Source of the DNA: Patescibacteria group bacterium
Lineage (GTDB): Bacteria; Patescibacteriota; Minisyncoccia; Phycocordibacterales; PALSA-1337
NCBI GenBank assembly: GCA_038061795.1
Contig: JBBTYL010000002.1
Location: forward strand, 105,511 to 169,510
Direction: 5' to 3'
Length of the DNA: 64,000 nucleotides
The notes under the pieces are model-generated. The model saw nothing but the letters and a program-made list of their open reading frames with translations. It ran no database searches and was not told where the DNA came from. Each line of letters opens with the position of its first letter. Position 1 is the first letter of the stretch. Positions 1,847 to 38,956 of the stretch are shown here, piece by piece. Both the position numbers and the translations under genes were made by a program.

Positions 1847-2749
1847 TCATTTAGGATAGACGAAATAAAAGGCCGGATCCGTCTCTGCATACGTTATGCC
1901 CAAGTAAATCAAATAGCTCTGTACGGCTCTCAACGCGTCGAAGAATCCCTTCTCAATTATAGGCCATTGCCCGGCAGCCTCTATGCCAGCCAAAGGATCG
2001 ATTGTTGCCTTCCTGAATGATTGCATCATGAAAAGTACAGAGTTTATGGCATTTACGAGATCTAAATGAAGGACTTCCATGGATTTCGGAGTCTCAATCT
2101 TAAGAAGCCCATTCACGATATTCTTGTAGCTCTCAATGACAGGATCAAGTTCTTTGAGAATGTCTGGGTTGCCCTTTTGCAAAGCATCTTTGACGATAAG
2201 TCCCTCATTTCTCGATCCAACGACGTATTTTTTAAAAACTGCCGTCATTTCGTTGCCGTATTGCTTTACCGCTTCTTTACTGCTATCGGTTTTTATCTTG
2301 ATCTCCGATATCAGATAGGGCTTTGCTTGCGTTGGGGGTATGGAATCAATCGTTTTCTGTATCAAATCCTGCTGGTTGTATTTGTCACCTGAAATGCCAA
2401 GCTGCCTTAGTTCCATGTAACGCGCAAAGAACTCTCGGCTCAAAGCGTCTATCGGTTCGATTTTTTCAGCAGTTTTTTGCGTCAAGTCCTTGATTATTGA
2501 GGCTGAAGGTGTGCGATTCTCCTTGCTTTTTGGGTCTTTAGGATTCGTCCCGATAAGAATTTCTTCCCAATCCTTCATCCCGTCCCCATCTGTGTCGAGG
2601 TCTTGGGCTGATCTGTCTATCGAATTTACAACCTCTGGTGCGACATAGACATTTTCAGCGTTTTTGTTCCTATATTCGGCGAACACAAAACTTCCTCCAA
2701 CGAGAAGGATTGCGATAAAAATGAACACGATGTTTTTGCCTATTTTCAC
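1847..2749 (-). CDS. Membrane-anchored protein of unknown function with a DxDxDG calcium-binding-like motif
   Basis: N-terminal transmembrane segment (IVFIFIAILLVGGSFVFA). Contains DLDTDGDGMKDWEEILIGTNPKDPKS, which resembles a thrombospondin type-3/EF-hand-like DxDxDG loop. The remainder looks helical and matches nothing I recognise. Confidence 0.7.
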   Translation of the reverse strand: MKIGKNIVFIFIAILLVGGSFVFAEYRNKNAENVYVAPEVVNSIDRSAQDLDTDGDGMKDWEEILIGTNPKDPKSKENRTPSASIIKDLTQKTAEKIEPIDALSREFFARYMELRQLGISGDKYNQQDLIQKTIDSIPPTQAKPYLISEIKIKTDSSKEAVKQYGNEMTAVFKKYVVGSRNEGLIVKDALQKGNPDILKELDPVIESYKNIVNGLLKIETPKSMEVLHLDLVNAINSVLFMMQSFRKATIDPLAGIEAAGQWPIIEKGFFDALRAVQSYLIYLGITYAETDPAFYFVYPK

Positions 2750-13078: not shown

Positions 13079-13153
13079 TGTGCATGTATACTAGCACGAA
13101 TGGGTTAAGTGCGCAAGTTTGGCCTAATACGTCGGCAGGGTTATACTTTACCC

Positions 13154-14089
13154 ATGTCGCACAATCTACAGAACCTCAAGACCGAATTTCTCCAATATAT
13201 CGAAATTGAGAGAGGCCGAAGTCTCAATACTGTTCGAAATTATGACCAGTATTTGAGCCGTTTCCTTGATTATACAAAGCTTAAGGATCCCAAAGGCATC
13301 ACAGATGGCGTCGTTCGAGACTTCAGAATATGGCTCAACAGGCAGGAGGCGAAGAAGGAAAAAGGCATGTCAGCTACTACGCTCAAGAAACGCACCCAAA
13401 ATTACTATCTGATCGCTCTGAGAGCTTTTCTAAAGTATTTGGCGAGGCAGGATATAGCTTCTTTGGCTCCTGATAGGATAGAACTCGCAAAAATTCCAGA
13501 AAGAACAATAGATCTTATAACTATTGAGGAATTGAGCCGTCTTCTGGCAGCTCCTGATACTTCGGAACTGCGAGGATTGCGGGATAAGGCCATGCTTGAA
13601 CTCTTTTTCTCTACAGGATTGCGCGTTTCAGAGCTTTGTTCCCTGCCCCGCGATATAAACCTTAAGCTTGATGAGCTTTCTGTTCGCGGAAAAGGTGAAA
13701 AAGTGAGGGTTGTTTTTATTTCTGATGACGCGCGTGACGCACTTGAGCGTTATTTGGACAAACGTGACGATATGGACGATGCGCTTTTTGTGCAAATTGC
13801 AGGCAAAAATGAAAAATTAATGAAAAATCGAGATTCGATGAGGCTCACTTCCCGTTCCGTTGAGAGAATCATCAAGCACTACGCAGTCAAGGCTGGAATT
13901 TCCAAAAAAGTGACCCCCCATGTCATTCGCCATTCTTTTGCGACTGATCTATTGAGAAACGGCGCTGATCTACGCTCTGTCCAGATGTTGCTTGGTCATG
14001 CGAATATCAATACTACCCAGATTTATACACACGTTACTGACAGTGAACTCAAGAAAATCCACAAGAAGTTCCACAGGAAGAGCGAATAG
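13154..14089 (+). CDS. xerC: Tyrosine recombinase, XerC/XerD-like
   Basis: SAM-like N-terminal domain. Catalytic-domain motifs HVIRHSFATDLL and LLGHANINTTQIYTHV (R..HxxR..Y). Start moved from the track's GTG at 13109 to the ATG at 13154, which lies 6 nt after TATACT (13142-13147). Confidence 0.85.
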   Translation: MSHNLQNLKTEFLQYIEIERGRSLNTVRNYDQYLSRFLDYTKLKDPKGITDGVVRDFRIWLNRQEAKKEKGMSATTLKKRTQNYYLIALRAFLKYLARQDIASLAPDRIELAKIPERTIDLITIEELSRLLAAPDTSELRGLRDKAMLELFFSTGLRVSELCSLPRDINLKLDELSVRGKGEKVRVVFISDDARDALERYLDKRDDMDDALFVQIAGKNEKLMKNRDSMRLTSRSVERIIKHYAVKAGISKKVTPHVIRHSFATDLLRNGADLRSVQMLLGHANINTTQIYTHVTDSELKKIHKKFHRKSE

Positions 14090-27824: not shown

Positions 27825-28730
27825 TTAAATTGTGGTTGTCGTGCTTGCTGTCGTCGTTGCCGTACTTGTGGCTGTTCCGTTTCCCTTGCCTCGACTCATT
27901 TTTTTTGCAATCGCTCCAACAACCTTTTTAAAAGCATCTCGTGCATCCTTTACTGCCCTGATAGCGGCATCGCCGACCTGGCGAGGCTTCGTTAATTCGA
28001 TTTCGGCTGTCGTCGAAGCTTCTGCGGCTGCTGATGTATTTCCTGTTGAGATATTGAGTGTACCGAGTGCATCAACAGCAATTCTTGCGTCTGCAAGTTT
28101 CTTGTCTGCGATGATGAGCTGCGCTTTTGCTTCAGTCATATCTCGGCCTTCAGTTTCAACCTTTATAATCCTCTCATTTATTCGTCCTCGGATATTGAGG
28201 AGATTCTCGAGGGCGAAATTCAAGTGTTCAACCAAAGCGCCTTTTCGTATTTCAAATGCGTCTTTTCGCATTTTTTCCATAATGTCCTTTCGGTCATCTT
28301 TGAATTTTTTGAACATTTCTGTTGTAGATGCTCGAAGTTCTTTTCGATCATCCCTCCTATCTTCTCTCTTGTCCTCGATGCAATCACGCCTTAGCCCGGG
28401 AGTCGTAGATGAAACTAGAATGTTTTTACAATCATCATCGCTATCGTCATCACTTTCATCGTCATCATTCTCTCTGAAATTTTTTCTTAATTCACCTATT
28501 GCATTTGTCGTAGATGCCCGAAGCTCCTTCCGATTGTCGTCGAAGTCTTTTCTAAGCCCCCTGAGATCATCAGATTTTTCATTTCTGATTTCGCTGTTTT
28601 TCTCAAATCGAGCCTCCGCTCTCTCTTTGAGCGGATTTGACGAACCGCTTTCTGCGAGTGCGGTAAGCGCGATGGAGGAAATGGCGATGGCACAAGCCAA
28701 AACCAGTGTTTTTGTTATAGATAATTTCAT
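27825..28730 (-). CDS. Secreted, highly charged helical repeat protein, unknown function
   Basis: Clear signal peptide (MKLSITKTLVLACAIAISSIALTALA). Internal duplication (NRKELRASTTNAIGELRKNF and DRKELRASTTEMFKKFKDD). A poly-acidic run (DDDESDDDSDDD) and a Thr/Ser-rich tail. Chosen over the equally long plus-strand ORF 27832..28743. Confidence 0.6.
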   Translation of the reverse strand: MKLSITKTLVLACAIAISSIALTALAESGSSNPLKERAEARFEKNSEIRNEKSDDLRGLRKDFDDNRKELRASTTNAIGELRKNFRENDDDESDDDSDDDCKNILVSSTTPGLRRDCIEDKREDRRDDRKELRASTTEMFKKFKDDRKDIMEKMRKDAFEIRKGALVEHLNFALENLLNIRGRINERIIKVETEGRDMTEAKAQLIIADKKLADARIAVDALGTLNISTGNTSAAAEASTTAEIELTKPRQVGDAAIRAVKDARDAFKKVVGAIAKKMSRGKGNGTATSTATTTASTTTTI

Positions 28731-28805
28731 TTTTGTTGGTTGATTAACGATTAAAAGGCAAATCTAAAAAGATTATGGACCTTGTAACCATTATATCACA
28801 GGAAA

Positions 28806-29945
28806 TTATTCCTCCTTCGGTTCGACGATTTCAGCAATAGGTGTTGACTGAATGTCAATCTTCCAACCGGTGAGTTTTGCCGCAAGACGCACGTTTTGGC
28901 CTCCTTTTCCGATTGCGAGCGACTGCTGATCCTCTGAAACATGCACTATTGCGCGCTTTTCCTCGTTATTTAGGTCAATTCTGATGATTTTTGCGGGAGA
29001 GAGTGATTCCTGGATGAATGTCGCCGGATCCTCGTTCCATTGTATGATATCGATCTTTTCACCTGCTAGTTCGCTCATAACCGTTGAAACTCGTACTCCT
29101 CGCTGCCCGACAAGCGATCCGATGGGGTCAATGTGGCTGTCTGTAGAGTGAACAGCGATCTTTGAACGAGCGCCTGCTTCACGAGCGATAGCCTTTACTT
29201 CTACAGTTCCTTGTGCGATTTCTGGTGCTTCTATCTCAAAAAGCTTGGCCAGGAACTTAGGATGTGATCGGGAAAGCTTCAAAATGATGCCTTTTGGCGT
29301 TTCCTCTACAGCATAAAGGTACGCTCGGATTCGTTCTCCTTGCTTGTAGCGCTCGCTTGGAATCTGCTCTTCGTAACCGATCATTCCCACAGCACGGCCC
29401 ATATCGACGAAAATAGCCCCTCGCTCTATTCTTTGTACCGTTCCAGAGACGATTTCTCCTTCTTTCTGGCCATATTCGCTCAAAACTGAGGTTTTTTCAG
29501 CTTCTCGGATCTTCTGGATGATGACCTGCTTGGCCGTTTGAGCTGCAATTCGTCCGTAATCTCCCTTTTCTTCGAGAGGGAAGATGATTTCATCGTCTAC
29601 CGCAGCGCCTTTCTTTATTTTTTTCGCATCAGCAAGGAGAATATGGTGTTCAGGGTTGAATCGTACTCGGATGTTTTCTTCAGCCATATTAGCGATATCC
29701 TGCTCATCCTCCTCGTCTTCCATGATGACCTTTGATTCGTCAACGACGATTTTCACCTGGTAAAACTCAACTTTTCCGGAGTTATTGTCAAAAACAGCTC
29801 GAACGATCTGGCCCTTCTTGCCGTATTCCTTCTTGTAAGCCGTTGCGAGAGCAAGCTCAATAGCTTCCAACATCTTTTCCTTTGGAATTCCTCGCTCATC
29901 CTCAAGCTGCTGAAGCACTGAATGTATTACTTTAAGATCAAACAT
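28806..29945 (-). CDS. nusA: Transcription termination/antitermination factor NusA
   Basis: N-terminal domain, S1 domain (GEIVSGTVQRIERGAIFVDMG), two KH domains (GPIGSLVGQRGVRV; AIGKGGQNVRLAAKLTGWKIDI). Confidence 0.9.
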   Translation of the reverse strand: MFDLKVIHSVLQQLEDERGIPKEKMLEAIELALATAYKKEYGKKGQIVRAVFDNNSGKVEFYQVKIVVDESKVIMEDEEDEQDIANMAEENIRVRFNPEHHILLADAKKIKKGAAVDDEIIFPLEEKGDYGRIAAQTAKQVIIQKIREAEKTSVLSEYGQKEGEIVSGTVQRIERGAIFVDMGRAVGMIGYEEQIPSERYKQGERIRAYLYAVEETPKGIILKLSRSHPKFLAKLFEIEAPEIAQGTVEVKAIAREAGARSKIAVHSTDSHIDPIGSLVGQRGVRVSTVMSELAGEKIDIIQWNEDPATFIQESLSPAKIIRIDLNNEEKRAIVHVSEDQQSLAIGKGGQNVRLAAKLTGWKIDIQSTPIAEIVEPKEE

Positions 29946-30080: not shown

Positions 30081-31217
30081 ATGAATCATAATAAACTATT
30101 TTTATTTTTGGTTTTATTCATTTCTTTCTTCATCATAGGTTCAAAAGCGCAGGCTGGCACAACTCCACTCAAGGGATGGGCATGGTCTGATGGAACCGGA
30201 TGGCTTAGTTTTAGTTCTGCAAATCCCGAATTGGGAGCAGGTCCTGCGTATGGCGTGACATTCTCTACGACGACGAACTCAACTGTCGGAAATTTCGGCG
30301 GATATGCGTGGTCTCCGAATATCGGATGGGTAAGCTTTGATGCTACTGACGGAACTCATCCTAGTGCATCTACAGATCTTACAACAGGCTTGGTGACAGG
30401 CTGGGCTCAGGCGATTGCTGGTGCGGGAAGAACTGACGGATGGGATGGATGGATACGTCTTTCAGACACTGGCGATGCCACTCCAAAGTATCCTTCCGGC
30501 TTTGTCGATGGAACAAAGGGAATCACATTCGATCCTGCGACTGGAAATTTCAAGGGATATTCATGGGGAGACACGAACGTCGGATGGCTTGCCTTCAGCT
30601 CAAATGTCGGCGTACCTTTCACTCCGCCAACCTGTGAGCCGAATTGTGGAGGAGTGGAGGATACATCAAGTCTCGATCTAGAAGTGAATGCAAATGGGAC
30701 TGGGTGGTATAGTTCAGCGTCGATTACGGCGAGAGAAGATAATACTGCGACGGTGGTTGTGAGATGGAATCTAGAAAATGTAAGTAATGTACAAATCGTA
30801 AACAACACCGATGGTGTAATTGGTTGGCCAGGAGCGAATCTTAACGATACAGATTATGGAGATGGAGATTTTTCAATAGATGATCAAACATCTGTTACTT
30901 TCTCAAATATTACTTCTACCATCGTAAAAAAGCTGAGACTTATGTATACAGATAACACTGATGCTGATCGCTATGCAGAAGTTTCTGTTACAATTTATCC
31001 TTATGGTATACCACCAGTCATCAACTGTCCTACACCTACGAATGCGCAGCTATGCTCAGGTTCATCGTATGCCGAGAGTGTGCCTTCAGTGCTTAGAGTA
31101 AATGCCGGACTATGTACTTCAGTAACAACTCCGCTTTCTTGTGAGTTCTATTGCCCTCAAGGATTTAAAATTGTTGGTAGTGTTTGCCGACGATCGGGAA
31201 CTCTAATTGAAAGATAA
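30081..31217 (+). CDS. Secreted protein with G-[WY]-[AS]-W-[SG]...GW-[ILV]-[SA]-F repeats and a Cys-rich C-terminus
   Basis: Signal peptide ending AQA. Motif copies GWAWSDGTGWLSF, GYAWSPNIGWVSF and GYSWGDTNVGWLAF, plus a degenerate TGWAQ...GWDGWIRL copy. The C-terminal region has 8 Cys. TATTAT (30068-73) lies 7 nt upstream of the ATG. Confidence 0.7.
   Translation: MNHNKLFLFLVLFISFFIIGSKAQAGTTPLKGWAWSDGTGWLSFSSANPELGAGPAYGVTFSTTTNSTVGNFGGYAWSPNIGWVSFDATDGTHPSASTDLTTGLVTGWAQAIAGAGRTDGWDGWIRLSDTGDATPKYPSGFVDGTKGITFDPATGNFKGYSWGDTNVGWLAFSSNVGVPFTPPTCEPNCGGVEDTSSLDLEVNANGTGWYSSASITAREDNTATVVVRWNLENVSNVQIVNNTDGVIGWPGANLNDTDYGDGDFSIDDQTSVTFSNITSTIVKKLRLMYTDNTDADRYAEVSVTIYPYGIPPVINCPTPTNAQLCSGSSYAESVPSVLRVNAGLCTSVTTPLSCEFYCPQGFKIVGSVCRRSGTLIER
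30174..30596 (+). repeat. Protein-level tandem Trp/Gly motif repeats (3 clear copies plus 1 degenerate)
   Basis: Copies lie at aa 32-44, 74-86 and 159-172, with a degenerate copy around aa 106-126 of the 378-aa product. Confidence 0.6.
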
Positions 31218-31288
31218 TAAAGTGATGCTATAAAAAGAGATTAGGCGCGTCGCTGTGAAGCAACACGCCTTTTCTTGTGGAAGTTTTT

Positions 31289-31981
31289 TCACTTCCTTTT
31301 CTTCAAAGTACGAAGACCGATCAATCCAAGCAGCAGAATCGCGGTGCTTGAAGGTTCGGGAACACCGAAGTTGATTCTGCTGGAAGCGTTTTCTCCAAAG
31401 AGCGTGTAGGTGACTTCCTGGTATGTAAAATCTGACCAGGATTCCAACGCTTCGTTCAGTGGAGTATTTCCTACATCAATTACGAGTCCGGCACCAGCCA
31501 TATAAACGGCATGGACCAGCGCATTTGCGTTGCCGGAAGAGTATGTAATATCGTCACTTGTTCCCAGGATATTGTCTGGACCCTTGTTGATGCCATATCC
31601 AGTATTGTATCCGCTGAAAGTCCGATCGTATTGGGAAAGGCTCGGATTCACAGTGGAATACCGAATCTGCGAAAGAGAGAAGGCGGTGTCGCTTACAACA
31701 GCAAAAGCATAGCGGAGTCCGCTTCCTGTAGTGCCGTAATTGAATACCGATTGCAGCGGAATGGTGGAATTGTTCGCGACAGGAGTCCAATTTCCGCTGG
31801 CTGGATTGTTGTGTTCCATTGAACCTGCAATGCTGTAATAAGTGGCGGATGAAGCTGGCTGACTAACAATGCCAGCTTGCACCTGAAACCGAAGTGTTCC
31901 CTGCGCCCACGAAGTGGCCGCGAGGAATGTAACGAACAGGGCAACGACAAGCGCCGCCAACCATTTGATTTTGGTCTTCAT
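31289..31981 (-). CDS. Secreted protein with a C-terminal PEP-CTERM-type sorting signal
   Basis: N-terminal signal peptide (MKTKIKWLAALVVALFVTFLAATSWAQG). The C-terminus FGVPEPSSTAILLLGLIGLRTLKKRK has the VPEP motif, a hydrophobic helix and a basic cluster, which is the PEP-CTERM architecture (nt 31292-31369). Confidence 0.75.
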   Translation of the reverse strand: MKTKIKWLAALVVALFVTFLAATSWAQGTLRFQVQAGIVSQPASSATYYSIAGSMEHNNPASGNWTPVANNSTIPLQSVFNYGTTGSGLRYAFAVVSDTAFSLSQIRYSTVNPSLSQYDRTFSGYNTGYGINKGPDNILGTSDDITYSSGNANALVHAVYMAGAGLVIDVGNTPLNEALESWSDFTYQEVTYTLFGENASSRINFGVPEPSSTAILLLGLIGLRTLKKRK

Positions 31982-32134: not shown

Positions 32135-32150
32135 AGTGTTCAACACCCCT

Positions 32151-33899
32151 ATGTTCATCGAAGACTCACAGCTCAATAAATTCATCATCGATTCTAATCT
32201 CGTATCGAAGGCGGACCTTGAAATTGCGCAAAAGGAAGCTGATAAAAAAGGCGTACGAATAGGGGAAATACTCGTCAGCACAGGGAAGATTACGGAAGAC
32301 AATCTCCGAAGGATGCAGGCATACGTGCTCGGTATACCGTTCGTCGACCTTAAGACCAAAAAAATCCCTTTTGAAACACTCTCGCTCATACCTGAACCGG
32401 TAGCCCGAACTCACAACGTCGTCGCTTTCCAGAAGAGCGAGGAAACGCTCGAAGTCGCCATGCTAGATGTCGAGGACCTTTCAGCTATTGATTTCATAAA
32501 AAAGAAGGTTAATTTGAAAATTCTTCCGCGTCTCACTGATGTCGAATCAATGAAAAGCGCTATCATCCAGTATCAAAAAACACTTAAAGCCGAGTTCGGA
32601 GATATCATTCAGAAGGAATCAGAAACGCTCAAGACCATCGCTGAAGAATCAGGAGAGCCGGCTACGGAAGAGGATTTGAAGAAGATTGCGCAGGATCTCC
32701 CGGTAGTACGCATCGTGGACACACTGCTCAAGCACGCAATTCTCCAGGATGCATCTGATATCCATATCGAGCCGATGGATGACCAGCTTCTCGTCCGTTA
32801 CCGCATCGATGGGCTTCTTCACGATGCCATGGTGCTTCCAAAGAACGCAGAGCCTTCTATTACAGCCCGTATCAAGGTGCTTTCGAACCTCAAGCTCGAT
32901 GAGAAGCGACTACCTCAGGACGGACGATTCAAGATCGAGATGAATAACGAAAAAGTTTCATTCCGAGTCTCGATGCTTCCGACATACTATGGAGAAAAGA
33001 CCGTGATGCGTCTCCTTCGGGAGAGCGTTTCAGGATTCACTTTGGAATACCTCGGCTTCCATGGTGAAGGACTTGAGAGGATTCACAACGCAAGCAAGCT
33101 TACGACAGGAATGATCCTTACAACAGGCCCGACCGGTTCTGGAAAGACAACAACCCTCTACACTATTCTTGATATTTTGAATCAGCCTGATGTGAACATT
33201 TCTACGATTGAAGATCCGGTGGAGTATCAGATGAAAAGGATCAATCAGACGCAGGTGAAGCCCGAGATCGGATTTACTTTTGCTTCTGGATTGAGAACTC
33301 TCGTGCGACAGGATCCAGACATCATCATGGTGGGAGAGATCCGAGACAACGAGACAGCATCTCTCGCCGTGAATGCATCGCTGACTGGGCACCTCGTGCT
33401 TTCAACGCTCCATACGAACAGCGCTGCCGGAGCGATTCCACGGCTTCTCGATATGAAGATCGAACCGTTCCTTCTCGTTTCAACTATCAACATCATCATT
33501 GCCCAGCGTCTCGTGAGAAAGCTTTCAGAGAATAAAGAGAAATACCTTCTAACGAAGGCAGAGCTCGCTTCTCTTGGAAAGACCGTGGATCTCGATCGTG
33601 TGCTCGAGCTCCTCAAGGCTGAGAAGATTGTGAAGGCTGGAGATACATGGGAAAAGATCCCGTTCTTCAAGCCAGTAGCATCGAAGGAAGACGACGGCTA
33701 CAAAGGCAGAGTCGGTATTCATGAGGTGCTCAAGGTGACGCAGACGATCAAGGAGCTTATCATCAAGGGCGCGACAAGCGGAGAGATAGAAACGCAGGCA
33801 AAGAAAGAGGGCATGACGACAATGATTGAAGACGGAATCTACAATGCCGCGAAGGGAGATACGACTATAGAGGAAGTGCTTCGCGTTGTCTCCGAATAG
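32151..33899 (+). CDS. pilB: Type IV pilus / type II secretion assembly ATPase (PilB/GspE family)
   Basis: N-terminal GSPII_E_N-like domain, Walker A GPTGSGKTTTLY, Asp box, Walker B IIMVGEIRD, His box LTGHLVLSTLHTN. Confidence 0.9.
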   Translation: MFIEDSQLNKFIIDSNLVSKADLEIAQKEADKKGVRIGEILVSTGKITEDNLRRMQAYVLGIPFVDLKTKKIPFETLSLIPEPVARTHNVVAFQKSEETLEVAMLDVEDLSAIDFIKKKVNLKILPRLTDVESMKSAIIQYQKTLKAEFGDIIQKESETLKTIAEESGEPATEEDLKKIAQDLPVVRIVDTLLKHAILQDASDIHIEPMDDQLLVRYRIDGLLHDAMVLPKNAEPSITARIKVLSNLKLDEKRLPQDGRFKIEMNNEKVSFRVSMLPTYYGEKTVMRLLRESVSGFTLEYLGFHGEGLERIHNASKLTTGMILTTGPTGSGKTTTLYTILDILNQPDVNISTIEDPVEYQMKRINQTQVKPEIGFTFASGLRTLVRQDPDIIMVGEIRDNETASLAVNASLTGHLVLSTLHTNSAAGAIPRLLDMKIEPFLLVSTINIIIAQRLVRKLSENKEKYLLTKAELASLGKTVDLDRVLELLKAEKIVKAGDTWEKIPFFKPVASKEDDGYKGRVGIHEVLKVTQTIKELIIKGATSGEIETQAKKEGMTTMIEDGIYNAAKGDTTIEEVLRVVSE

Positions 33900-33916
33900 C
33901 TTTAAAAATAATTTTC

Positions 33917-35140
33917 ATGTCACATTTCATTTACAAAGCAAAGAAGCCGACTGGCGAAATATATAAAAGCGAAAAGGATGCGCAGGACCGCTACGAGCTT
34001 TATCGTATGATAAAGGAGAGCGGAGAAGAAGTCGTCGATGTCCAGGAAAAAGGCGCTGCGGGCTCTTTCTTCAAGATGCCTTCGCTTACCTTTTCTTTTC
34101 TCAATAACGTAAAGACGCAGGAGAAGATAAACTTTGCGCGAAATCTTGGATCCATGATCACTGCCGGGCTTGCTATGTCCCGCGCCCTTTCCGTCATGGA
34201 GCGTCAGACGAAGAACAAGGCGATGAAGAATATCCTCATTTCCTTACAGAAGGATGTGAGCGAGGGAAAGACATTGAGCACTGCAATGAGCAGCTACAAG
34301 AACGTCTTTTCCCCGCTGTTCATATCGATGGTTGCTGCGGGAGAGCAGAGCGGAAATCTCGCCGAGTCCCTCAAGATTGTCGGGCTCCAGATGGACAAGA
34401 ACTACGCGCTTCAGAGAAGGGTAAAAGGCGCCATGATGTATCCGAGCGTCATTCTCATTGCCATGGTCCTCATCGCCATCCTCATGCTTACCTATATCGT
34501 GCCGACGCTCATGAAGACGTTCACTGAACTCAAGCTGGATCTTCCTTTGTCTACGAAATTCGTGCTCTACACAAGCAATACGATACGTGACCACGGACTT
34601 GTCGTCTTTCTAGCCACCGCGGTGATTATCGGCGCACTCATCGTCTGGTCAAAGCGCGCAAGCGGAAAGAATGTCATCCATTATGCAATCCTCAAGATTC
34701 CAGTCATCGGAGGAATAATAAAGGAGGTGAATGCCGCGCGAACGGCGCGAACGCTCTCCTCGCTTCTCAATTCTGGCGTCGATGTCGTCGAATCGGTTCG
34801 CATAACGATGGACGTCATTCAGAATGTCCATTACAAGGATATTCTCAGAAGGGCAGGCGAGGCGATAAAGAAAGGAGATCCGATCTCGAAGATCTTCACG
34901 GAGAACGAGAAGCTTTACCCGCTTTTCCTCGGGGAGATGATGAATGTCGGGGAAGAGACCGGAAAAATCGGGGAGATGCTCATGGGGGTGGCGGTCTTTT
35001 ATGAGGATGATGTCGAGCAGAAGACGAAGGATATGTCGACCATCATCGAGCCGTTCCTCATGGTTTTCATCGGCGCGGCGGTCGGCTTCTTCGCTGTGGC
35101 GATGATTTCCCCAATGTATTCACTTGTAAATGTCATTTAG
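33917..35140 (+). CDS. pilC: Type IV pilus platform protein (PilC/GspF family)
   Basis: 407 aa. Duplicated GspF domain with 3 transmembrane spans. Motifs GLAMSRALSVM and the C-terminal PMYSLVNVI-type ending. Confidence 0.9.
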   Translation: MSHFIYKAKKPTGEIYKSEKDAQDRYELYRMIKESGEEVVDVQEKGAAGSFFKMPSLTFSFLNNVKTQEKINFARNLGSMITAGLAMSRALSVMERQTKNKAMKNILISLQKDVSEGKTLSTAMSSYKNVFSPLFISMVAAGEQSGNLAESLKIVGLQMDKNYALQRRVKGAMMYPSVILIAMVLIAILMLTYIVPTLMKTFTELKLDLPLSTKFVLYTSNTIRDHGLVVFLATAVIIGALIVWSKRASGKNVIHYAILKIPVIGGIIKEVNAARTARTLSSLLNSGVDVVESVRITMDVIQNVHYKDILRRAGEAIKKGDPISKIFTENEKLYPLFLGEMMNVGEETGKIGEMLMGVAVFYEDDVEQKTKDMSTIIEPFLMVFIGAAVGFFAVAMISPMYSLVNVI

Positions 35141-36908
35141 AAACAAAATAAAGCAAAATGGAAACAGGGCTTTTACCCTAGTCGAGACATTGGTAGGTGT
35201 CGCTGTTTTTCTCATAATCGCCACAGCCACTTATCAGGCATATGTCAGCCTTTTCGCTTTGATCAATCAGAACCAGTACAAGATACTCGGGCTCAATCTT
35301 GCAAACGAGCAGTTTGAGATTATCAGAAATCTCACATATTCCGATGTGGGAGTTCAAGGAGGGCTTCCGAACGGAAAAATTCCCCATGAGCAGACGCTGA
35401 CCAGGGGAGGAGTCGTTTTTAGTGTAACGATAACCATAAGAAACGTCGACCTTCCATTTGACGGTACCATAGGCGGTTCTCCGAATGACCTTTCTCCGGC
35501 AGACAACAAGCTCGTGGAGCTCGAGATAGATTGCCTTTCGTGCAATTCCTTTGCGCCTCTTTTCCTGACGACGACTGTCGCGCCGAAAGCTCTTGAGACA
35601 TCTTCATCGAATGGAGCGCTTTTCATCAGGGTGTTCGATGCAAACGGGGTAGCGGTCACCGACGCTGACGTGCATATAGTCAATACGCAGGCGAATCCTG
35701 ATATCATCATCGACGACGTGACCGATGCTGGCGGCATGCTTCAGATAATCGATGCGCCGCCGGGAGTCGAGGCTTACGAAATCACCGTCACAAAAGCGGG
35801 ATACTCGACAGCCCGCACCTACTCTCAGGCAGAGCTCAATCCATCAATTCCTAGCACCCCACACGCAACGGTGGTAGTTCAAAGTGTGACCTCGATCAGT
35901 TTTGCCATAGATCAATTGGCTTCGCTCGCCATTTCAAGCGTTGATCCATTTTGCGCCCCGGTCGGAAATTTTAATTTTTCTCTAAGAGGCACAAAAAATA
36001 TCGCTGCGAGCCCCGATGTCTCCAAGTATTATCAGAATCTTGCGACAAATGGTTCCGGACTGCTTAATCTTAATTCAATGGAATGGGGAACATACTTCTT
36101 TACTCCGACTGATACTGCTTATGATGTCGCCGGTTTCAATCCGCTCAATCCTGTCGCACTGAATCCAGGAGCCGCGCAGGAAAGTCAGATCATAATCGTA
36201 CCGCAAACCTCAGTCGGCTTATTGGTAACCGTGAAGGATTCTACCACTCAATTGCCTGTAGCAGACGCGGCCGTGACTCTTTCCAAGATCGGATATGACG
36301 AAACTAAGACAACTGGAAAGGGCTATATCATTCAAAGCGATTGGTCTGGAGCAGGTGGTTATACTGAAGAAATAGGGACGGACGAAACGGATCCTGTCGG
36401 GGAAATAAAATTGAAAAAAGTCTTTGGCTTGTACAACCCAGATGGCATTCTCATGTCCTCAACCATTGATACCGGCTCGGCAAGCAACTTTTATAATCTG
36501 ATCTGGGCGCCGTCAGGGGTTCCAGCGTCGACGACGCTCAAGTTCCAAATAGCGACAGCAACGACAACCTCTCCTGTTTCGTGGCAATTTCTCGGACCAG
36601 ACGGCACGCCAGCGACCTATTACGTTATTTCGGATTCCCCAATCAATGCTATTCATAATGGGGACCGGTACTTGCGCTACAAGGCATTTTTGCATACGGA
36701 TGACGGCTTAATAACTCCGAATATATCCGATGTTGCGTTTACCTTCACTTCATCCTGTACTCCCCCTGGCCAGGTTTTTTTCCAAGGAATCACGACAGAC
36801 AACTATGAGCTTGAGATTTCAAGAGCGGGGTACGATACGCAGAACATTTCGATTTCAATTGGCAGCGGGTGGCAGAATCAGGAAGTCATATTGCAAGCTT
36901 CTCCATAA
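35130..36908 (+). CDS. Giant pilin-like protein: class III (prepilin) signal plus repeated carboxypeptidase-regulatory-like beta domains
   Basis: The N-terminus NRAFTLVETLVGVAVFLIIATATYQAY is a prepilin-type signal with Glu at +5. It is followed by about 550 aa containing repeats such as VRVFDANGVAVTDADVHIVN...ITVTKAGYST, LLVTVKDSTTQLPVADAAVTLSKIGYD and YELEISRAGYDT. Overlaps pilC by 11 nt. Confidence 0.75.
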   Translation: MSFRNKIKQNGNRAFTLVETLVGVAVFLIIATATYQAYVSLFALINQNQYKILGLNLANEQFEIIRNLTYSDVGVQGGLPNGKIPHEQTLTRGGVVFSVTITIRNVDLPFDGTIGGSPNDLSPADNKLVELEIDCLSCNSFAPLFLTTTVAPKALETSSSNGALFIRVFDANGVAVTDADVHIVNTQANPDIIIDDVTDAGGMLQIIDAPPGVEAYEITVTKAGYSTARTYSQAELNPSIPSTPHATVVVQSVTSISFAIDQLASLAISSVDPFCAPVGNFNFSLRGTKNIAASPDVSKYYQNLATNGSGLLNLNSMEWGTYFFTPTDTAYDVAGFNPLNPVALNPGAAQESQIIIVPQTSVGLLVTVKDSTTQLPVADAAVTLSKIGYDETKTTGKGYIIQSDWSGAGGYTEEIGTDETDPVGEIKLKKVFGLYNPDGILMSSTIDTGSASNFYNLIWAPSGVPASTTLKFQIATATTTSPVSWQFLGPDGTPATYYVISDSPINAIHNGDRYLRYKAFLHTDDGLITPNISDVAFTFTSSCTPPGQVFFQGITTDNYELEISRAGYDTQNISISIGSGWQNQEVILQASP

Positions 36909-36911
36909 TAT

Positions 36912-37532
36912 ATGAAATTTTATTTTAAAAAAGGATTTACGCTCGTTGAACTCATAGTAGTCATTGGAATTTTGGGCTTGATCATGATCGGCGTCAGTAA
37001 TTTTCAAGTAGATGTGCTTGTGTATAATAAATATGCAGAAAATTCACTCTCAAGTGCGCAAGATGCAAGAAATGTTCTCAGGGTAATAGTAAAAGAGCTT
37101 CGCACCGCATCCCCAAGCAATAACGGGGCATACGCCATTGCTCAAGCGGCAACGAGCACCATAACGTTCTTCAGTGATACTGATGGCGATGGATTGAAAG
37201 AACAGATACGCTATTTTATCTCGACGACAACCCCCGTAACTTTGAAAAAAGGTTCTATCAAGCCTATAGGCTCACCCTCTGTGTACAGTCCTTCTGCCGA
37301 AGTCTTTTCAACCTTAGCGTATAATATAAAGAATGCTACTAGTACAGCACTGTTTGAATATTATGATAACGGCTACGCAGGTACGAGCAGCCCATTGACC
37401 CAGCCAGTGACAGTTACCAGCATTCGTCTGGTCAAGATCAATCTGATGATTGATGCTGATCCGAACAAGTCGCCGATTCCAAGGCTCTATACCTCTCAAG
37501 TAAGCTTAAGAAATCTAAAAGATAATTTATGA
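36912..37532 (+). CDS. Type IV pilin-like protein with a canonical prepilin signal
   Basis: MKFYFKKGFTLVELIVVIGILGLIMIG contains the KKG|FTLVE cleavage/methylation motif. At 206 aa it is the candidate major pilin of the cluster. Confidence 0.8.
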   Translation: MKFYFKKGFTLVELIVVIGILGLIMIGVSNFQVDVLVYNKYAENSLSSAQDARNVLRVIVKELRTASPSNNGAYAIAQAATSTITFFSDTDGDGLKEQIRYFISTTTPVTLKKGSIKPIGSPSVYSPSAEVFSTLAYNIKNATSTALFEYYDNGYAGTSSPLTQPVTVTSIRLVKINLMIDADPNKSPIPRLYTSQVSLRNLKDNL

Positions 37533-38956
37533 TATTAAAAAAAGGCCTTATTCTCGTCAATGTCTTGGTGTTCGGAGCCATTGCCATCATTGTCACAAGC
37601 GCCATGGTGAACTGGGGAGCAACCATGCTGAAAGATACGAAGCAGCTGAGTGCTCGAGAGCAGGCTTTTCAGATTGCTGAAGCCGGCATTGATTATTATC
37701 GATGGCATCTAGCCCACTCTCCCACAGACTATAAGGACGGCACGGCTACCACGACCAACGGCCCCTTTATCCATGATTTCGAAGATAAGGACGGAAACGT
37801 GATTGGCGCGTTCGAGTTGACCATAACTCCGCCGCTGATAGGATCTACGCTGGTGAAGATAGTTTCAAAGGGGACGGTCGTTGAGTATCCTTCAGTCTAT
37901 CGCAAGATTCAGTCAACGCTTGCCATACCATCCCTTGCGAAGTATGCAGTGGTAGCGAATGCCTTCATGAATTTTGGTTCAGGTACTGTCGTACAGGGTC
38001 CAATTCACTCAAATGGGGGAATACATTTCGATGGAATAGCATATAATATTGTTTCGAGCGCTGTTAACACATTTACCGATCCTGATGTCAATGCGACAAA
38101 ATGGGCCGTCTACACCACTTCAGGGAGCGATGATCCGAATCCTATGACGGCATTGCCTGTTCGCAATGATGTTTTTATGGCAGGAAGGCAGTTTCCATTA
38201 GCAGCGGTTGATTTCAATGCCCTCACAGCCGATTTATCAAATCTAAAGGCACAGGCAACTTCCAGCGGCGCATATTTCGCTCCGTCTGGCGCTCAAGGAT
38301 ACCATATAGTCCTCAATACGAATGATACGTTTACTATCTATACCGTAAACTCTTTAATAAATCTTACGGGATCTTGTGCGACAAATGCGACTGCTCAAAG
38401 CCAGTCAGGATGGGGATCGTGGAGCATCAATACCCAAAGCGCAGCCATAGGCACCTACGCATTTCCTTCAAACGGAATTATTTTCGTCGAAGACAATGTA
38501 TGGGTTGACGGGACTATAAATACGGCTCGTCTCACGATAGCAGCAGGAGTCTTTCCAGATGATGCAAGTACAAGGAAAAGCATTACAGTCAATAGTAATT
38601 TGCTTTATACGAATTATGACGGACAGGATGTCATTGCTCTTATCGCTCAAAAAAATATAAATGCTGGATTCAGCAGCCTCAATACGCAAAGAATCGACGC
38701 AGCGCTTGTCGCTCAAAACGGCCGCGCAGGAAGATATTATTATTCTACGAATTGCGGAACAGGGCATACAAGAAGCACACTGACGCTCTACGGCATGATT
38801 GCGACCAATCAGCGTTACGGTTTTGCCTATTCTGGCGGTACAGGATATACGACAAGAAACATTATCTATGATAGTTATCTTCTATATGGCCCCCCACCTT
38901 CATTTCCTCTGACTTCAAGCCAGTATACGACCCTCTCCTGGGAGGAGATTAAATAA
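37529..38956 (+). CDS. Pilus-associated protein with a non-canonical pilin-like N-terminus (PilX-like?)
   Basis: MILKKGLILVNVLVFGAIAIIVTSAMVNW has KKG followed by a hydrophobic helix, but no Phe at +1 and no Glu at +5. The large Gly/Asn/Thr-rich extracellular part suggests a beta-helix. Overlaps the upstream pilin gene by 4 nt. Confidence 0.6.
   Translation: MILKKGLILVNVLVFGAIAIIVTSAMVNWGATMLKDTKQLSAREQAFQIAEAGIDYYRWHLAHSPTDYKDGTATTTNGPFIHDFEDKDGNVIGAFELTITPPLIGSTLVKIVSKGTVVEYPSVYRKIQSTLAIPSLAKYAVVANAFMNFGSGTVVQGPIHSNGGIHFDGIAYNIVSSAVNTFTDPDVNATKWAVYTTSGSDDPNPMTALPVRNDVFMAGRQFPLAAVDFNALTADLSNLKAQATSSGAYFAPSGAQGYHIVLNTNDTFTIYTVNSLINLTGSCATNATAQSQSGWGSWSINTQSAAIGTYAFPSNGIIFVEDNVWVDGTINTARLTIAAGVFPDDASTRKSITVNSNLLYTNYDGQDVIALIAQKNINAGFSSLNTQRIDAALVAQNGRAGRYYYSTNCGTGHTRSTLTLYGMIATNQRYGFAYSGGTGYTTRNIIYDSYLLYGPPPSFPLTSSQYTTLSWEEIK

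What the first reader, a model, noticed from the sequence alone, without database searches (positions are those of the whole stretch)
30081..31217. Secreted protein built on an unrecognised Trp/Gly repeat (G-[WY]-[AS]-W-[SG]-x3-4-GW-[ILV]-[SA]-F)
After a signal peptide the protein repeats a 13-14-residue aromatic motif three times: GWAWSDGTGWLSF, GYAWSPNIGWVSF and GYSWGDTNVGWLAF. A fourth copy is degenerate (TGWAQ...GWDGWIRL). The copies are spaced about 40-80 residues apart. A middle domain follows, then a tail with 8 cysteines (CPTPTNAQLCSG...CTSVTTPLSCEFYCPQGFKIVGSVC). I cannot assign the motif to any named domain. The regular Trp spacing suggests a beta-propeller or beta-solenoid blade signature, or a carbohydrate-binding surface. 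Its position upstream of the pilus operon and next to the PEP-CTERM protein makes it a candidate surface or adhesion component.
Basis: seen in the sequence. Interest (0 to 1): 0.55.

Follow-up and report, generated by a model that had tools for sequence, protein, structure and literature searches.

The report
Uncatalogued Trp/Gly surface domain, Patescibacteria
The gene encodes a secreted surface protein of an ultra-small (Patescibacteria) bacterium whose first 150 residues form a four-repeat, tryptophan-rich domain that occurs in thousands of relatives, has no name in current databases and no convincing structural match, and usually lies beside fibre and pilus genes, so it is probably part of the cell-attachment apparatus.

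Summary
ORF 30081-31217 (+) encodes a 378-aa protein. It has a Sec signal peptide, four Trp/Gly repeats (aa 26-176), a CxxxC linker, an Ig-like domain, a six-Cys module and a tail ending in Glu-Arg.

The repeats form one domain. Each repeat is a unit of about 30 residues with three strands. Repeat 2 against repeat 4 gives HHalign E 2.8e-14. The AF2 model is confident (pLDDT 82.6, pTM 0.80).

No Pfam, NCBIfam or PDB-sequence match was found, even at E<=10. Foldseek against PDB and BFVD found nothing better than E about 1.

The family is large and lineage-restricted. It has 3,527 clusters at 50% identity. At least 555 loci were found in species-representative genomes, and those inspected are essentially all Patescibacteria/Paceibacteria.

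The domain almost always directly follows the signal peptide. It is fused to varying PKD, CARDB, LamG or Cys-rich modules. It is tightly coupled to a C-terminal ...x-Glu-x tail (82% against 5% background).

Gene context is conserved:
- A co-directional fibre gene with an N-terminal 'AWTAPTxxPPxGNxxAPINVG' motif occurs in 47% of loci.
- pilB/pilC lie downstream in 24% of loci.
- In this gene's own subfamily, a convergent PEP-CTERM-like partner occurs in 7 lineages.

Best reading: a constant docking module that holds variable adhesin modules on a fibre/pilus-associated surface apparatus. The mechanism is inferred, not shown. This is a new domain family, of moderate-to-high interest.

The parts
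30081..31217 (+). Whole gene: a 378-aa secreted multi-domain protein. It is identical to MEK7463783.1, 'hypothetical protein AAB610_01540', Patescibacteria group bacterium.
30081..30155 (+). Sec-type signal peptide, aa 1-25 (MNHNKLFLFLVLFISFFIIGSKAQA|G).
   Evidence: Read from the sequence. The AF2 model shows helix 3-19. Homologues have equivalent N-termini. No signal-peptide predictor was run.
30156..30608 (+). WG-repeat domain, aa 26-176. It is an all-beta domain of four repeats and the conserved core of the family.
   Evidence: The AF2 domain model has pLDDT 82.6 and pTM 0.80 with 13 strands. Invariant G/W/S/A positions are listed. The domain HMM hits 245/245 collected proteins.
30156..30212 (+). 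Repeat 1, aa 26-44 (GTTPLKGWAWSDGTGWLSF). It lacks the first strand that repeats 2-4 have.
30246..30338 (+). Repeat 2, aa 56-86 (AYGVTFSTTTNSTVGNFGGYAWSPNIGWVSF).
   Evidence: HHalign of repeat 2 against repeat 4 gives E 2.8e-14.
30363..30458 (+). Repeat 3, aa 95-126 (SASTDLTTGLVTGWAQAIAGAGRTDGWDGWIR). The motif is split by a loop.
30516..30596 (+). Repeat 4, aa 146-172 (KGITFDPATGNFKGYSWGDTNVGWLAF).
30633..30647 (+). Conserved CxxxC (CEPNC, aa 185-189) in the linker after the repeat domain.
   Evidence: C189 is nearly invariant and CP(S/T/G)C occurs in homologues.
30669..31001 (+). Ig-like beta-sandwich middle domain, aa ~197-307.
   Evidence: The AF2 model has strands 199-306 with pLDDT 60-89. 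Foldseek matches Rib domain 6s5w_A (probability 1.00, TMt 0.52) and NCAM Ig 1epf_B (probability 1.00).
31026..31187 (+). Six-Cys C-terminal module, aa 316-369 (CPTPTNAQLC...CTSVTTPLSCEFYCPQGFKIVGSVC). It defines this orthologue subfamily.
   Evidence: It is conserved in P0002-P0008, P0010, P0011, P0022, P0024 and others. AF2 confidence is low here, pLDDT 37-46.
31188..31214 (+). C-terminal tail RRSGTLIER, ending in Glu-x-COOH. This tail is family-wide.
   Evidence: The penultimate residue is Glu in 184/244 homologues. In the loci it is Glu in 65/79 WG proteins against 36/684 other ORFs.
31243..31270 (.). 12-bp GC-rich hairpin with T-runs on both strands, lying between the convergent genes. It is probably a bidirectional terminator.
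   Evidence: This is a consensus scan only.
31289..31981 (-). Convergent 230-aa partner gene. It encodes a signal peptide, an ectodomain of about 170 aa, then VPEPSS, a TM helix and KKRK (PEP-CTERM-like).
   Evidence: NCBIfam TIGR02595 scores 21.1 bits (cutoff 16). Pfam PF07589 scores 17.7, below its cutoff of 20.7. The gene is conserved beside WG orthologues in 7 lineages. NCBI names it a PEP-CTERM protein.
32136..38956 (+). Type IV pilus operon downstream: PilB ATPase (32136-33899), PilC (33917-35140), a 592-aa modular pilin (35130-36908), a 206-aa pilin (36912-37532) and a 475-aa protein with weak GspK-like similarity (37529-38956).
   Evidence: Synteny with WG genes in other species is shown.
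28806..29945 (-). Divergent nusA. It marks the conserved syntenic position of this WG gene.
   Evidence: nusA lies upstream and divergent in 18 of 64 species-representative loci.

Best explanation
The gene encodes a Sec-exported cell-surface protein of a Patescibacteria (Paceibacteria-type) bacterium.

Its N-terminal 150 residues form a compact all-beta domain. The domain is built from four copies of a three-strand unit of about 30 residues, with the signature phi-x-phi-D-x-x-TG-x-F-x-G-[YW]-A-W-S-x-N-[IV]-G-W-[IV]-S-F. I call it the 'WG domain'.

I propose that the WG domain is the constant docking or adaptor module of a large family. It holds variable passenger modules on a conserved, self-encoded surface apparatus. 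Here the passengers are an Ig-like domain plus a six-Cys knot. Elsewhere they are PKD, CARDB, LamG or InlB-B-repeat domains.

In most relatives the apparatus would be the co-encoded trimeric fibre proteins, which carry a conserved proline-rich N-terminus, and the adjacent type IV pilus machinery. In this gene's own subfamily the partner would be the convergently encoded, membrane-anchored PEP-CTERM-like protein.

The conserved C-terminal ...x-Glu-x-COOH tail is a second constant element of the same system.

Shown: the domain, its repeats, its conservation, its lineage restriction, its architecture, and its gene neighbourhoods.

Inferred: that it docks to the fibre, pilus or partner proteins, possibly through Trp-lined binding of the Pro-rich fibre N-terminus, and that the protein serves host attachment.
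For: 1. The domain is real and confidently modelled. pLDDT is 82.6 and pTM 0.80, with 13 strands in four meanders. Repeat 2 against repeat 4 gives HHalign E 2.8e-14.
2. The architecture is a constant module with variable partners. The domain starts within 60 residues of the N-terminus in 234/245 proteins. Identity within the domain is 35-55%, while the rest does not align. C-terminal parts carry PKD, CARDB, Laminin_G_3, Flg_new, Ig_Rha78A_N and DUF4215.
3. Whole domains are inserted between repeats, for example LamG after repeat 1 in P0052 and P0053, and about 300-390 aa between repeats 3 and 4 in P0207, P0123, P0224 and P0182. Tandem duplications also exist.
4. Neighbourhood in 80 species-representative genomes. 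A family beginning with signal peptide + AWTAPTxxPPxGNxxAPINVGxxxQxKxG is found next to 40/85 WG genes. All 47 of these genes are on the same strand as the WG gene, and 21 WG genes have one within 100 nt. Several carry the Peptidase_S74 fibre-chaperone domain or Gly_rich_2.
5. pilB lies downstream on the same strand in 12/49 loci and never upstream, with gaps of 22 and 36 nt in L083 and L055. The recurring order is nusA<- WG-> (small TM) fibre-> pilB-> pilC-> pilins.
6. In this subfamily the convergent PEP-CTERM-like gene is retained in 7 lineages, down to 30-34% WG identity, and in three different wider contexts.
7. The family is restricted to Patescibacteria and absent from viral contigs.
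8. Secreted Ig-like and PKD proteins are among the most highly expressed signal-peptide genes of Paceibacteria attached to hosts (PMC10936435). That gives context only; membership of this family was not checked.
Against:
- The 80 loci analysed are the best matches to the query profile. They are enriched for positional orthologues, so the synteny counts are not independent events and overstate the family-wide linkage.
- About half of the WG genes have neither a fibre gene nor pilB within 6 kb (see also L003, L007 and L008).
- In this window the gene has its own terminator, and the fibre family is absent from all 64 kb.
- A very strongly conserved, aromatic-rich, N-terminal module is equally what a cell-wall-binding anchor would look like.
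Which Trp residues are exposed is therefore unknown.
Confidence: 0.42

Rival explanations
1. The WG domain is a non-covalent cell-wall anchor, functionally like SLH, CWB2 or choline-binding modules. It would bind a conserved peptidoglycan or secondary wall polymer of the bacterium itself and so display many different passenger domains, or an S-layer, on the surface. The neighbouring fibre and pilus genes would simply be other envelope genes.
For: - The domain sits at the N-terminus straight after the signal peptide in 234/245 proteins, followed by highly variable passenger domains.
- It is extremely conserved and rich in Trp, Tyr and Gly (10 Trp in 151 aa), as in known aromatic wall-binding repeats.
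- The family is very large (3,527 clusters), and some loci have two copies (L074, L082).
- About half of the genes lack fibre or pilus neighbours.
Against: - There is no sequence or fold similarity to any known wall-binding module.
- A generic anchor does not predict the strict co-orientation and 3-100-nt adjacency with one particular fibre family, 47/47 on the same strand.
- It also does not predict the subfamily-specific PEP-CTERM-like partner.
- It does not explain the coupled C-terminal Glu-x tail.
Confidence: 0.28
2. WG proteins polymerise head-to-tail. The C-terminal ...x-Glu-x tail of one subunit would insert into the WG domain of the next, for instance filling the strand position that repeat 1 lacks. 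This would build a filament or lattice with conserved ends and a variable exposed middle, in the manner of donor-strand-exchange pili or flagellin-like subunits.
For: - The tail and the WG domain are tightly coupled: 65/79 against 36/684, and 184/244.
- The coupling holds whatever fold precedes the tail and wherever the WG domain sits, for example L016, L035 and L038.
- Repeat 1 has only two of the three strands.
- A few WG-less neighbours also carry the tail: L034:9060-10595, L067:3111-4154 and L008:2912-4918.
- CPR bacteria are now known to build donor-strand-exchange pili from Sec-exported Ig-like subunits (Pam pili; bioRxiv 10.64898/2026.03.03.709456).
Against: - This is purely correlative; no multimer modelling was possible.
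- The tail pattern (phi-x-E-phi) does not match the register of the first-strand consensus of repeats 2-4 (Y-G-V-x-phi-D).
- There are no chaperone- or usher-like neighbours.
- The NCBIfam Pam models hit only 1 of 120 homologues, and weakly.
Confidence: 0.15
3. The WG domain is itself the adhesin head. It would be a lectin- or ligand-binding beta-barrel that recognises a host-cell surface glycan or small molecule, and the rest of the protein would be the stalk.
For: - Aromatic-rich beta repeats often bind sugars.
- The weak best structural neighbours are ligand-binding 8-stranded barrels: hemophilin 7re4_C (TMq 0.46), then TbpB, lipocalins, avidin and GID4.
Against: - Host-binding heads are normally the variable part. 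Here the WG domain is the most conserved part across lineages that are expected to have different hosts.
- It sits next to the signal peptide, at the membrane-proximal end if the N-terminus stays closest to the cell.
- All structural matches are insignificant (E>=1, probability <=0.51).
Confidence: 0.1

Closest known systems
Choline-binding / cell-wall-binding repeats (Pfam CW_binding_1; LytA, CbpA, clostridial toxin CROPs)
   Same: Both are short Gly/Trp/Tyr-rich beta-hairpin repeats in secreted proteins of bacteria with a single membrane. Both act as a constant module attached to variable functional domains.
   Different: The period and signature differ: four units of about 30-45 aa with long linkers, against many tandem 20-aa units. 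There is no Pfam hit at E<=10, and 0/120 homologues hit. The profile search finds nothing in PDB sequences, and no such fold appears among the 50 best Foldseek matches listed. The copy number is fixed at four and forms one compact domain, not an open superhelix.
Clostridioides difficile CWP family (CWB2 anchor) and SLH-domain proteins
   Same: The family logic is the same: one conserved anchoring or docking module after the signal peptide, with many paralogues carrying different passenger domains.
   Different: There is no sequence or structural relationship. Any ligand of the WG domain is unknown. WG genes have specific fibre, pilus or PEP-CTERM-like neighbours, and they carry an additional conserved C-terminal tail.
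PilY1/PilC tip adhesins of type IV pili
   Same: Both are Sec-exported non-pilin proteins encoded beside type IV pilus genes. Both combine a conserved beta-repeat docking domain with a variable adhesive part.
   Different: No PilY1/Neisseria_PilC domain is detected. The WG domain is N-terminal, has 150 aa and four repeats, and matched no propeller fold. Most WG genes are not in pilus operons. This is an analogy in function only, and it is untested.
Pam pili of CPR bacteria (PamA/PamB; bioRxiv 10.64898/2026.03.03.709456)
   Same: Both are CPR-specific, Sec-exported, Ig-like-containing surface proteins with paired cysteines. The Pam precedent shows that CPR surface filaments are built from previously unannotated proteins.
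   Different: Pam pilins are reported mainly in Saccharimonadia and Microgenomatia, whereas the WG family is in Paceibacteria-type lineages. NCBIfam Pam models hit 1/120 homologues at E 0.003, in a non-WG region. No chaperone-like neighbours are present.
Eight-stranded up-and-down beta-barrels (hemophilin, TbpB/fHbp barrels, lipocalins, avidins, GID4)
   Same: These are the best, though weak, structural neighbours of the AF2 domain model, with TMq 0.40-0.46 over about 150 columns.
   Different: All matches have E>=1 and probability <=0.51. They share no sequence signal and have no four-fold internal repeat.

Membership tests
Choline-binding / CW_binding_1 repeats (PF01473) | A match to the family HMM: tandem repeats of about 20 aa with GW..G.WYYF. 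| tested here: not met
   Pfam hmmscan of the protein gives 0 families at E<=10. None of 120 homologues hits the family at E<=0.01.
Choline-binding / CW_binding_1 repeats (PF01473) | A beta-hairpin superhelical fold, as in LytA, CbpF or toxin CROPs. | tested here: not met
   Foldseek of the confident domain model against PDB shows no such entry among the 50 best matches listed. The profile search against all PDB sequences gives 0 hits at E<=10.
ChW (PF07538), GW, WxL, SLH, CWB2, LysM wall-binding modules | A match to the respective Pfam HMM within the N-terminal domain. | tested here: not met
   The only hit is ChW in 1 of 120 homologues, at E 0.0031 (P0120, an atypical short protein). None of the other modules is hit.
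Beta-propeller repeats (WD40, Reg_prop, PQQ, Kelch, FG-GAP, SBBP) | Four to ten four-stranded blades arranged radially, with an HMM or fold match. | tested here: not met
   The units have three strands (two in repeat 1). WD40, TolB and DCAF1 hits have TM 0.12-0.19 and probability <=0.06. There are no Pfam propeller hits. The full-length model's hits to HTCS propeller+Y_Y_Y proteins (E 3e-4, TM <0.2, rmsd about 20 A) did not recur with the domain alone.
PilY1 / Neisseria_PilC pilus tip adhesin | The PilY1 C-terminal propeller domain, with the gene inside a minor-pilin operon. | tested here: not met
   No Pfam or NCBIfam hit. Here the gene is separated from the pilus operon by a convergent gene and a terminator. 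Only the neighbourhood resembles this family.
PEP-CTERM / exosortase substrates | A C-terminal PEP motif followed by a TM helix and a basic tail. | tested here: not met
   The WG protein ends ...SGTLIER with no TM helix. The neighbour at 31289-31981 does have VPEPSS-TM-KKRK. No exosortase was found among the window ORFs that were scanned.
CPR Pam pilus proteins (NCBIfam CPR_pilus_Pam*) | A match to the Pam family HMMs and presence of the pam operon (PamC/D chaperones). | tested here: not met
   The query has 0 NCBIfam hits. PamR is hit weakly in 1 of 120 homologues. No chaperone-like neighbours are present.
Ig-like beta-sandwich (middle domain only) | A seven- to nine-stranded sandwich fold. 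| tested here: met
   Foldseek probability is 1.00 against Rib (6s5w_A, TMt 0.52; 9avk, TMt 0.50) and against NCAM Ig (1epf_B). Model confidence is moderate, pLDDT 60-89. There is no Pfam hit for this copy.
New 'WG-repeat' domain family (defined here) | Four repeats with invariant G-[WY]-A-W-S...G-W, placed directly after a signal peptide, plus a C-terminal x-Glu-x tail. | tested here: met

The most novel reading that the evidence does not exclude
The WG domain and the C-terminal ...phi-x-Glu-phi-COOH tail together define a previously unrecognised surface-assembly system specific to Paceibacteria-type Patescibacteria.

In this reading, a new beta fold captures a short terminal peptide. The peptide could be the tail of the next subunit (head-to-tail polymer) or the proline-rich N-terminus of the co-encoded trimeric fibres.

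This would build or anchor the host-attachment appendages that sit next to the type IV pilus machinery. It would be a new way of mounting adhesins on a cell with a single membrane and no sortase-type signal.
Probability: 0.2. Interest if true: 0.8.

Novelty: new variant of a known kind. Interest (0 to 1): 0.62.

Why it matters
Patescibacteria make up a large share of bacterial diversity and live attached to other cells. Very little is known about the proteins on their surface.

This domain marks thousands of secreted proteins and has no name in Pfam or NCBIfam. It has a confident predicted structure with no recognisable relative. It also travels with fibre genes, pilus genes and a peculiar C-terminal tail.

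Naming it would immediately annotate a large block of 'hypothetical' surface proteins. It would also give experimenters a constant handle for locating the variable adhesins of these organisms, through antibodies, tags or pull-downs. Finally, it would make the question of how uncultured episymbionts mount their attachment apparatus directly testable.

Tried and rejected
1. Sequence searches of the protein against Pfam, NCBIfam and PDB at E<=10 found nothing. A 29-sequence domain profile against PDB sequences also found nothing.
2. Scanning all 120 homologues against Pfam and NCBIfam gave hits only for C-terminal passenger domains.
3. Foldseek of the full model gave HTCS propeller+Y_Y_Y hits (E 3e-4). 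These have TM <0.2 and rmsd about 20 A, and they vanished when the domain was searched alone. I rejected them as an artefact of general beta content plus the Ig-like domain. Foldseek against viral structures found nothing.
4. The viral-contig scan found no relatives, so the family is not phage-borne despite the tail-fibre-like neighbours.
5. I followed the NCBIfam 'invert_tail' (C-terminal anchoring) and 'CPR_pilus_PamR' leads with two further scans of selected homologues. PamR hits P0113 outside the WG domain.
6. The Pam pilus paper was read. It describes different proteins in different classes.
7. Literature searches for the motif strings and for Trp-rich repeats in Patescibacteria found nothing relevant.
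8. I looked for the fibre family ('AWTAP...PINVG') in the window and in the close orthologue loci. It is absent there.
9. I looked for an exosortase among the window ORFs that were scanned. None was found.
10. I considered a covariation (mutual-information) test between tail residues and WG columns. I did not run it. About 320 related sequences would not separate contact from phylogeny.
11. Model coordinates and PAE are not returned by the tools. Strand topology, Trp exposure and any tail-to-domain contact in the full-length model could not be examined.
Full report
**The feature**

ORF 30081..31217 (+) encodes 378 aa. It is identical to GenBank MEK7463783.1, 'hypothetical protein AAB610_01540', from a Patescibacteria-group MAG contig of at least 208,735 bp.

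The motif regex finds GWAWSDGTGWLSF (aa 32-44), GYAWSPNIGWVSF (aa 74-86) and GYSWGDTNVGWLAF (aa 159-172). It finds nothing else in the six-frame translation of the 64-kb window. The protein has 13 Trp, ten of them in aa 26-176, and 8 Cys at 185, 189, 316, 325, 345, 354, 358 and 369.

The N-terminus, MNHNKLFLFLVLFISFFIIGSKAQA|G, reads as a Sec signal peptide. I judged this by eye; no predictor was run.

**The motif defines a large family**

The word-indexed search returned 205 homologues. The exhaustive HMMER search of 1.84 billion cluster representatives returned 3,527 at E<=1e-3, 1,150 at E<=1e-10 and 40 at E<=1e-30. Where a source names the organism, it is Patescibacteria, Paceibacterota or Minisyncoccota.

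The 80 kept come from Taylor-, Yonath-, Nealson-, Niyogi-, Wolfe-, Giovannoni-, Nomura-, Terry- and Sungbacteria, from Ca. Paceibacter, and from unclassified Patescibacteria. Many TPA assemblies are labelled 'Saccharibacteria'. One contig is labelled Gammaproteobacteria but has typical Paceibacteria neighbours. IMG/VR viral contigs hold no relatives.

Only the N-terminal ~150 residues align across the family. G32, W35, S36, G40, W41, A76, W77, S78, G82, W83, F86, G107, W108, G120, W121, D122, G123, I125, G159, W162, G163, G168 and W169 are invariant or nearly so. The 'degenerate' copy is therefore a conserved fourth repeat, (T)GWARA...GWDGWIxLS.

**Repeat anatomy and fold**

The family consensus reads:
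- Repeat 1: LSGYAWSSNIGWVSF
- Repeat 2: YGVTVDESTGNLSGYAWSENIGWISF
- Repeat 3: AKVDLSTGAVTGWARAL...GWDGWISL
- Repeat 4: YGVTLDKSTGKFSGYAWGSDVVGWLSF

Profile self-alignment matches repeat 2 to repeat 4 over 48 columns, with probability 98.2% and E 2.8e-14.

AlphaFold2 on the domain alone, with 120 sequences, gives pLDDT 82.6 and pTM 0.80. It predicts 13 strands, arranged as a short strand, a long strand ending in G-[YW]-A-W-S, and a strand G-W-I-S-F in each repeat. Repeat 1 lacks the first strand.

The full-length model has mean pLDDT 71. It adds an Ig-like sandwich at aa ~197-307 and a poorly predicted six-Cys module.

Foldseek results were as follows.
- The Ig-like domain matches Rib and NCAM Ig domains with probability 1.00.
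- The WG domain alone has no match better than E = 1 in PDB. The best TMq is 0.46, to hemophilin. Other weak neighbours are 8-stranded up-and-down barrels. WD40 propellers score TM <0.2.
- Nothing was found in BFVD.

Pfam, NCBIfam and PDB-sequence searches found nothing at E<=10 for the protein. The same holds for the 29-sequence profile. None of 120 homologues has a hit that can be assigned to this domain. The precomputed Pfam labels of the hits list no family for it either. Literature searches for the motif strings found nothing.

The domain is therefore real, ancient within this lineage and uncatalogued. By the libraries available here it has no recognisable fold relative. AFDB was not available.

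**Architecture**

The domain starts within 60 residues of the N-terminus in 234 of 245 proteins. Some proteins have two tandem copies.

In several proteins a whole extra domain is inserted between repeats. LamG follows repeat 1 in P0052 and P0053. About 300-390 aa lie between repeats 3 and 4 in P0207, P0123, P0224 and P0182. This fits a closed repeat fold with permissive inter-repeat loops.

Downstream modules vary: PKD, CARDB, Laminin_G_3, InlB-B-repeat/Flg_new, Ig_Rha78A_N and DUF4215. The query's subfamily has Ig-like plus C..C...C.F.C..G[FY]......C.

**An unexpected second constant element**

The penultimate residue is Glu in 184 of 244 homologues. Examples are ...SSIQEI...PVFQEL and ...GTLIER. 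A variant is [WF]-[KR]-E-[VI]-x-P-[FW].

In the fetched loci, 65 of 79 complete WG proteins end in Glu-x, against 36 of 684 other ORFs. This holds whatever domain precedes the tail and wherever the WG domain sits.

No TM segment follows the tail, so it is not a sortase- or exosortase-type signal. A few WG-less neighbours carry it too.

**Gene context**

In the window the order is:
- nusA (<-, 28806-29945)
- the WG gene (->)
- a hairpin with T-runs on both strands (31243-31270)
- a convergent 230-aa PEP-CTERM-like gene (<-, 31289-31981)
- pilB, pilC, two pilin-like genes and a 475-aa gene with weak GspK-like similarity (->, 32136-38956)

This is shown. Close relatives share the order.

In 80 species-representative loci containing 85 WG genes:
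- nusA is upstream and divergent in 18 of 64 loci with enough sequence.
- pilB is downstream on the same strand in 12 of 49, and never upstream.
- The gaps to pilB are 22 nt in L083 and 36 nt in L055.

The strongest association is with a second unannotated family. Its members have a signal peptide followed by AWTAPTxxPPxGNxxAPINVGxxxQxKxG. This family occurs next to 40 of 85 WG genes. All 47 of its genes are on the same strand as the WG gene, and 21 WG genes have one within 100 nt. Several members carry the Peptidase_S74 intramolecular chaperone typical of trimeric fibres, or Gly_rich_2.

A recurring order is nusA<- | WG-> small-TM-> fibre-> ... pilB-> pilC-> pilins->.

The fibre family is absent from this window and from the close orthologue loci. 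There the conserved partner is the PEP-CTERM-like protein. It is retained, convergent, beside WG orthologues of only 30-34% identity. These lie in three different wider contexts: nusA/pilB, tRNA-synthetase/acyltransferase, and histidine-kinase/acyltransferase.

No exosortase was seen among the window ORFs scanned.

One caveat applies. The 80 loci are the best matches to the profile and include many positional orthologues. These counts are therefore not independent and overstate the family-wide linkage. Other homologues sit in unrelated contexts.

**Interpretation**

The constant elements are an N-terminal domain, a variable middle and a constant C-terminal tail. The family also shows specific operon-like linkage to fibre genes, to type IV pilus genes or to a membrane-anchored partner.

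Together these point to a surface protein whose WG domain is a docking or adaptor module. It would not be the variable ligand-binding head.

I favour docking to the co-encoded appendage proteins (confidence about 0.4). A Trp-lined surface binding the proline-rich fibre N-terminus is an attractive idea, but it is untested.

The main rival is a self cell-wall anchor of the SLH, CWB2 or choline-binding kind (about 0.3). The architecture fits equally well, but that model does not predict the specific neighbours or the tail.

A head-to-tail polymer using the tail as a donated peptide has a probability of about 0.15. It is the most novel reading still open. CPR bacteria do build donor-strand pili from unannotated Sec-exported proteins (bioRxiv 10.64898/2026.03.03.709456). 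However, those Pam proteins are different proteins, reported mainly in other classes.

A host-lectin head is least likely, because the domain is the most conserved part of the protein.

**Verdict**

The 'unrecognised domain' and 'surface component near pili' readings are supported. The propeller or solenoid reading is not.

This is a new domain family, a new variant of the known kind 'constant surface-display module'. It comes with two further unexplained companions, the Glu-x tail and the 'AWTAP' fibre family. The mechanism remains inferred.

Noticed in passing
window 31188-31214; homologues P0001-P0244; loci L001-L088: Proteins with the WG domain end in a conserved C-terminal tail, [IVF]-x-Glu-[IFLRKQ]-COOH (variant [WF]-[KR]-E-[VI]-x-P-[FW]). 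The frequency is 82% in WG proteins against 5% in neighbouring ORFs. No TM segment follows, so it is unlike known C-terminal sorting signals. A few WG-less neighbours have it too (L034:9060-10595, L067:3111-4154, L008:2912-4918).
   Followed up: partly
e.g. L017:7705-9660, L083:4207-5919, L066:3443-5509, L087:7456-10071, L011:5107-5898 (47 genes in 37 loci): A second unannotated family lies next to WG genes, always on the same strand. Its members have a signal peptide and then a conserved proline-rich start, AWTAPTxxPPxGNxxAPINVGxxxQxKxG. The bodies vary. Several end in the Peptidase_S74 fibre-chaperone domain or contain Gly_rich_2. The family is absent from this window.
   Followed up: partly
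window 31289-31981 (-); L003:9338-10054, L089:1469-2257, L090:4624-5427: A PEP-CTERM-like protein (VPEPSS + TM + KKRK) occurs in a Patescibacterium and is conserved as the convergent partner of this WG subfamily in 7 lineages. No exosortase was found among the window ORFs scanned. The word-indexed search found only 8 relatives.
   Followed up: partly
P0052, P0053 (LamG after repeat 1); P0207, P0123, P0224, P0182 (300-390 aa between repeats 3 and 4); P0186, P0187, P0063, P0150 (tandem domains): Whole domains are inserted between repeats of the WG domain, and the domain is duplicated in tandem in some homologues.
   Followed up: partly
L010:2671-2961, L017:7341-7703, L054:7292-7591, L061:6949-7263: A small single-TM protein of about 96-120 aa recurs between the WG gene and the fibre gene in loci that continue into pilB/pilC.
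   Followed up: no
homologue set A2 (P0001-P0120): Two new NCBIfam models gave weak hits among the homologues. 'invert_tail' (lipo-invert putative C-terminal anchoring domain, NF058595) hit 2 of 120. 'CPR_pilus_PamR' (NF058578) hit 1 of 120.
   Followed up: partly
window 35130-36908 (+): A 592-aa pilin-like protein has a prepilin N-methylation motif plus a CarboxypepD_reg domain. It is a large 'modular pilin' inside the pilus operon. The following 475-aa ORF (37529-38956) has only a weak GspK-like N-terminus.
   Followed up: no
window 58570-61602 (+): A 1,010-aa protein has a hydrophobic N-terminus, a PG_binding_1 domain and a Kre9/KNH-like Ig domain. It is another large envelope protein without a clear function.
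   Followed up: no
window 27825-28730 (-): A 301-aa ORF has a signal-peptide-like N-terminus and a Thr/Ser/Ala-rich C-terminus (...ATSTATTTASTTTTI). It has no Pfam hit. An overlapping 303-aa ORF lies on the opposite strand (27832-28743).
   Followed up: no
window 1847-2749 (-): This ORF carries a bacterial TSP3 (thrombospondin type 3) repeat.
   Followed up: no
window 13109-14089 (+): This ORF is a tyrosine recombinase with Phage_integrase and SAM-like N-terminal domains.
   Followed up: no
L071 (CAYYGX010000004.1): The contig is labelled 'uncultured Gammaproteobacteria'. It carries a WG protein of more than 2,179 aa preceded by an AWTEP-type fibre gene, which is the typical Paceibacteria arrangement. 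The label is probably a binning or naming error. Many TPA assemblies labelled 'Saccharibacteria' have NusA N-termini nearly identical to that of this window.
   Followed up: no
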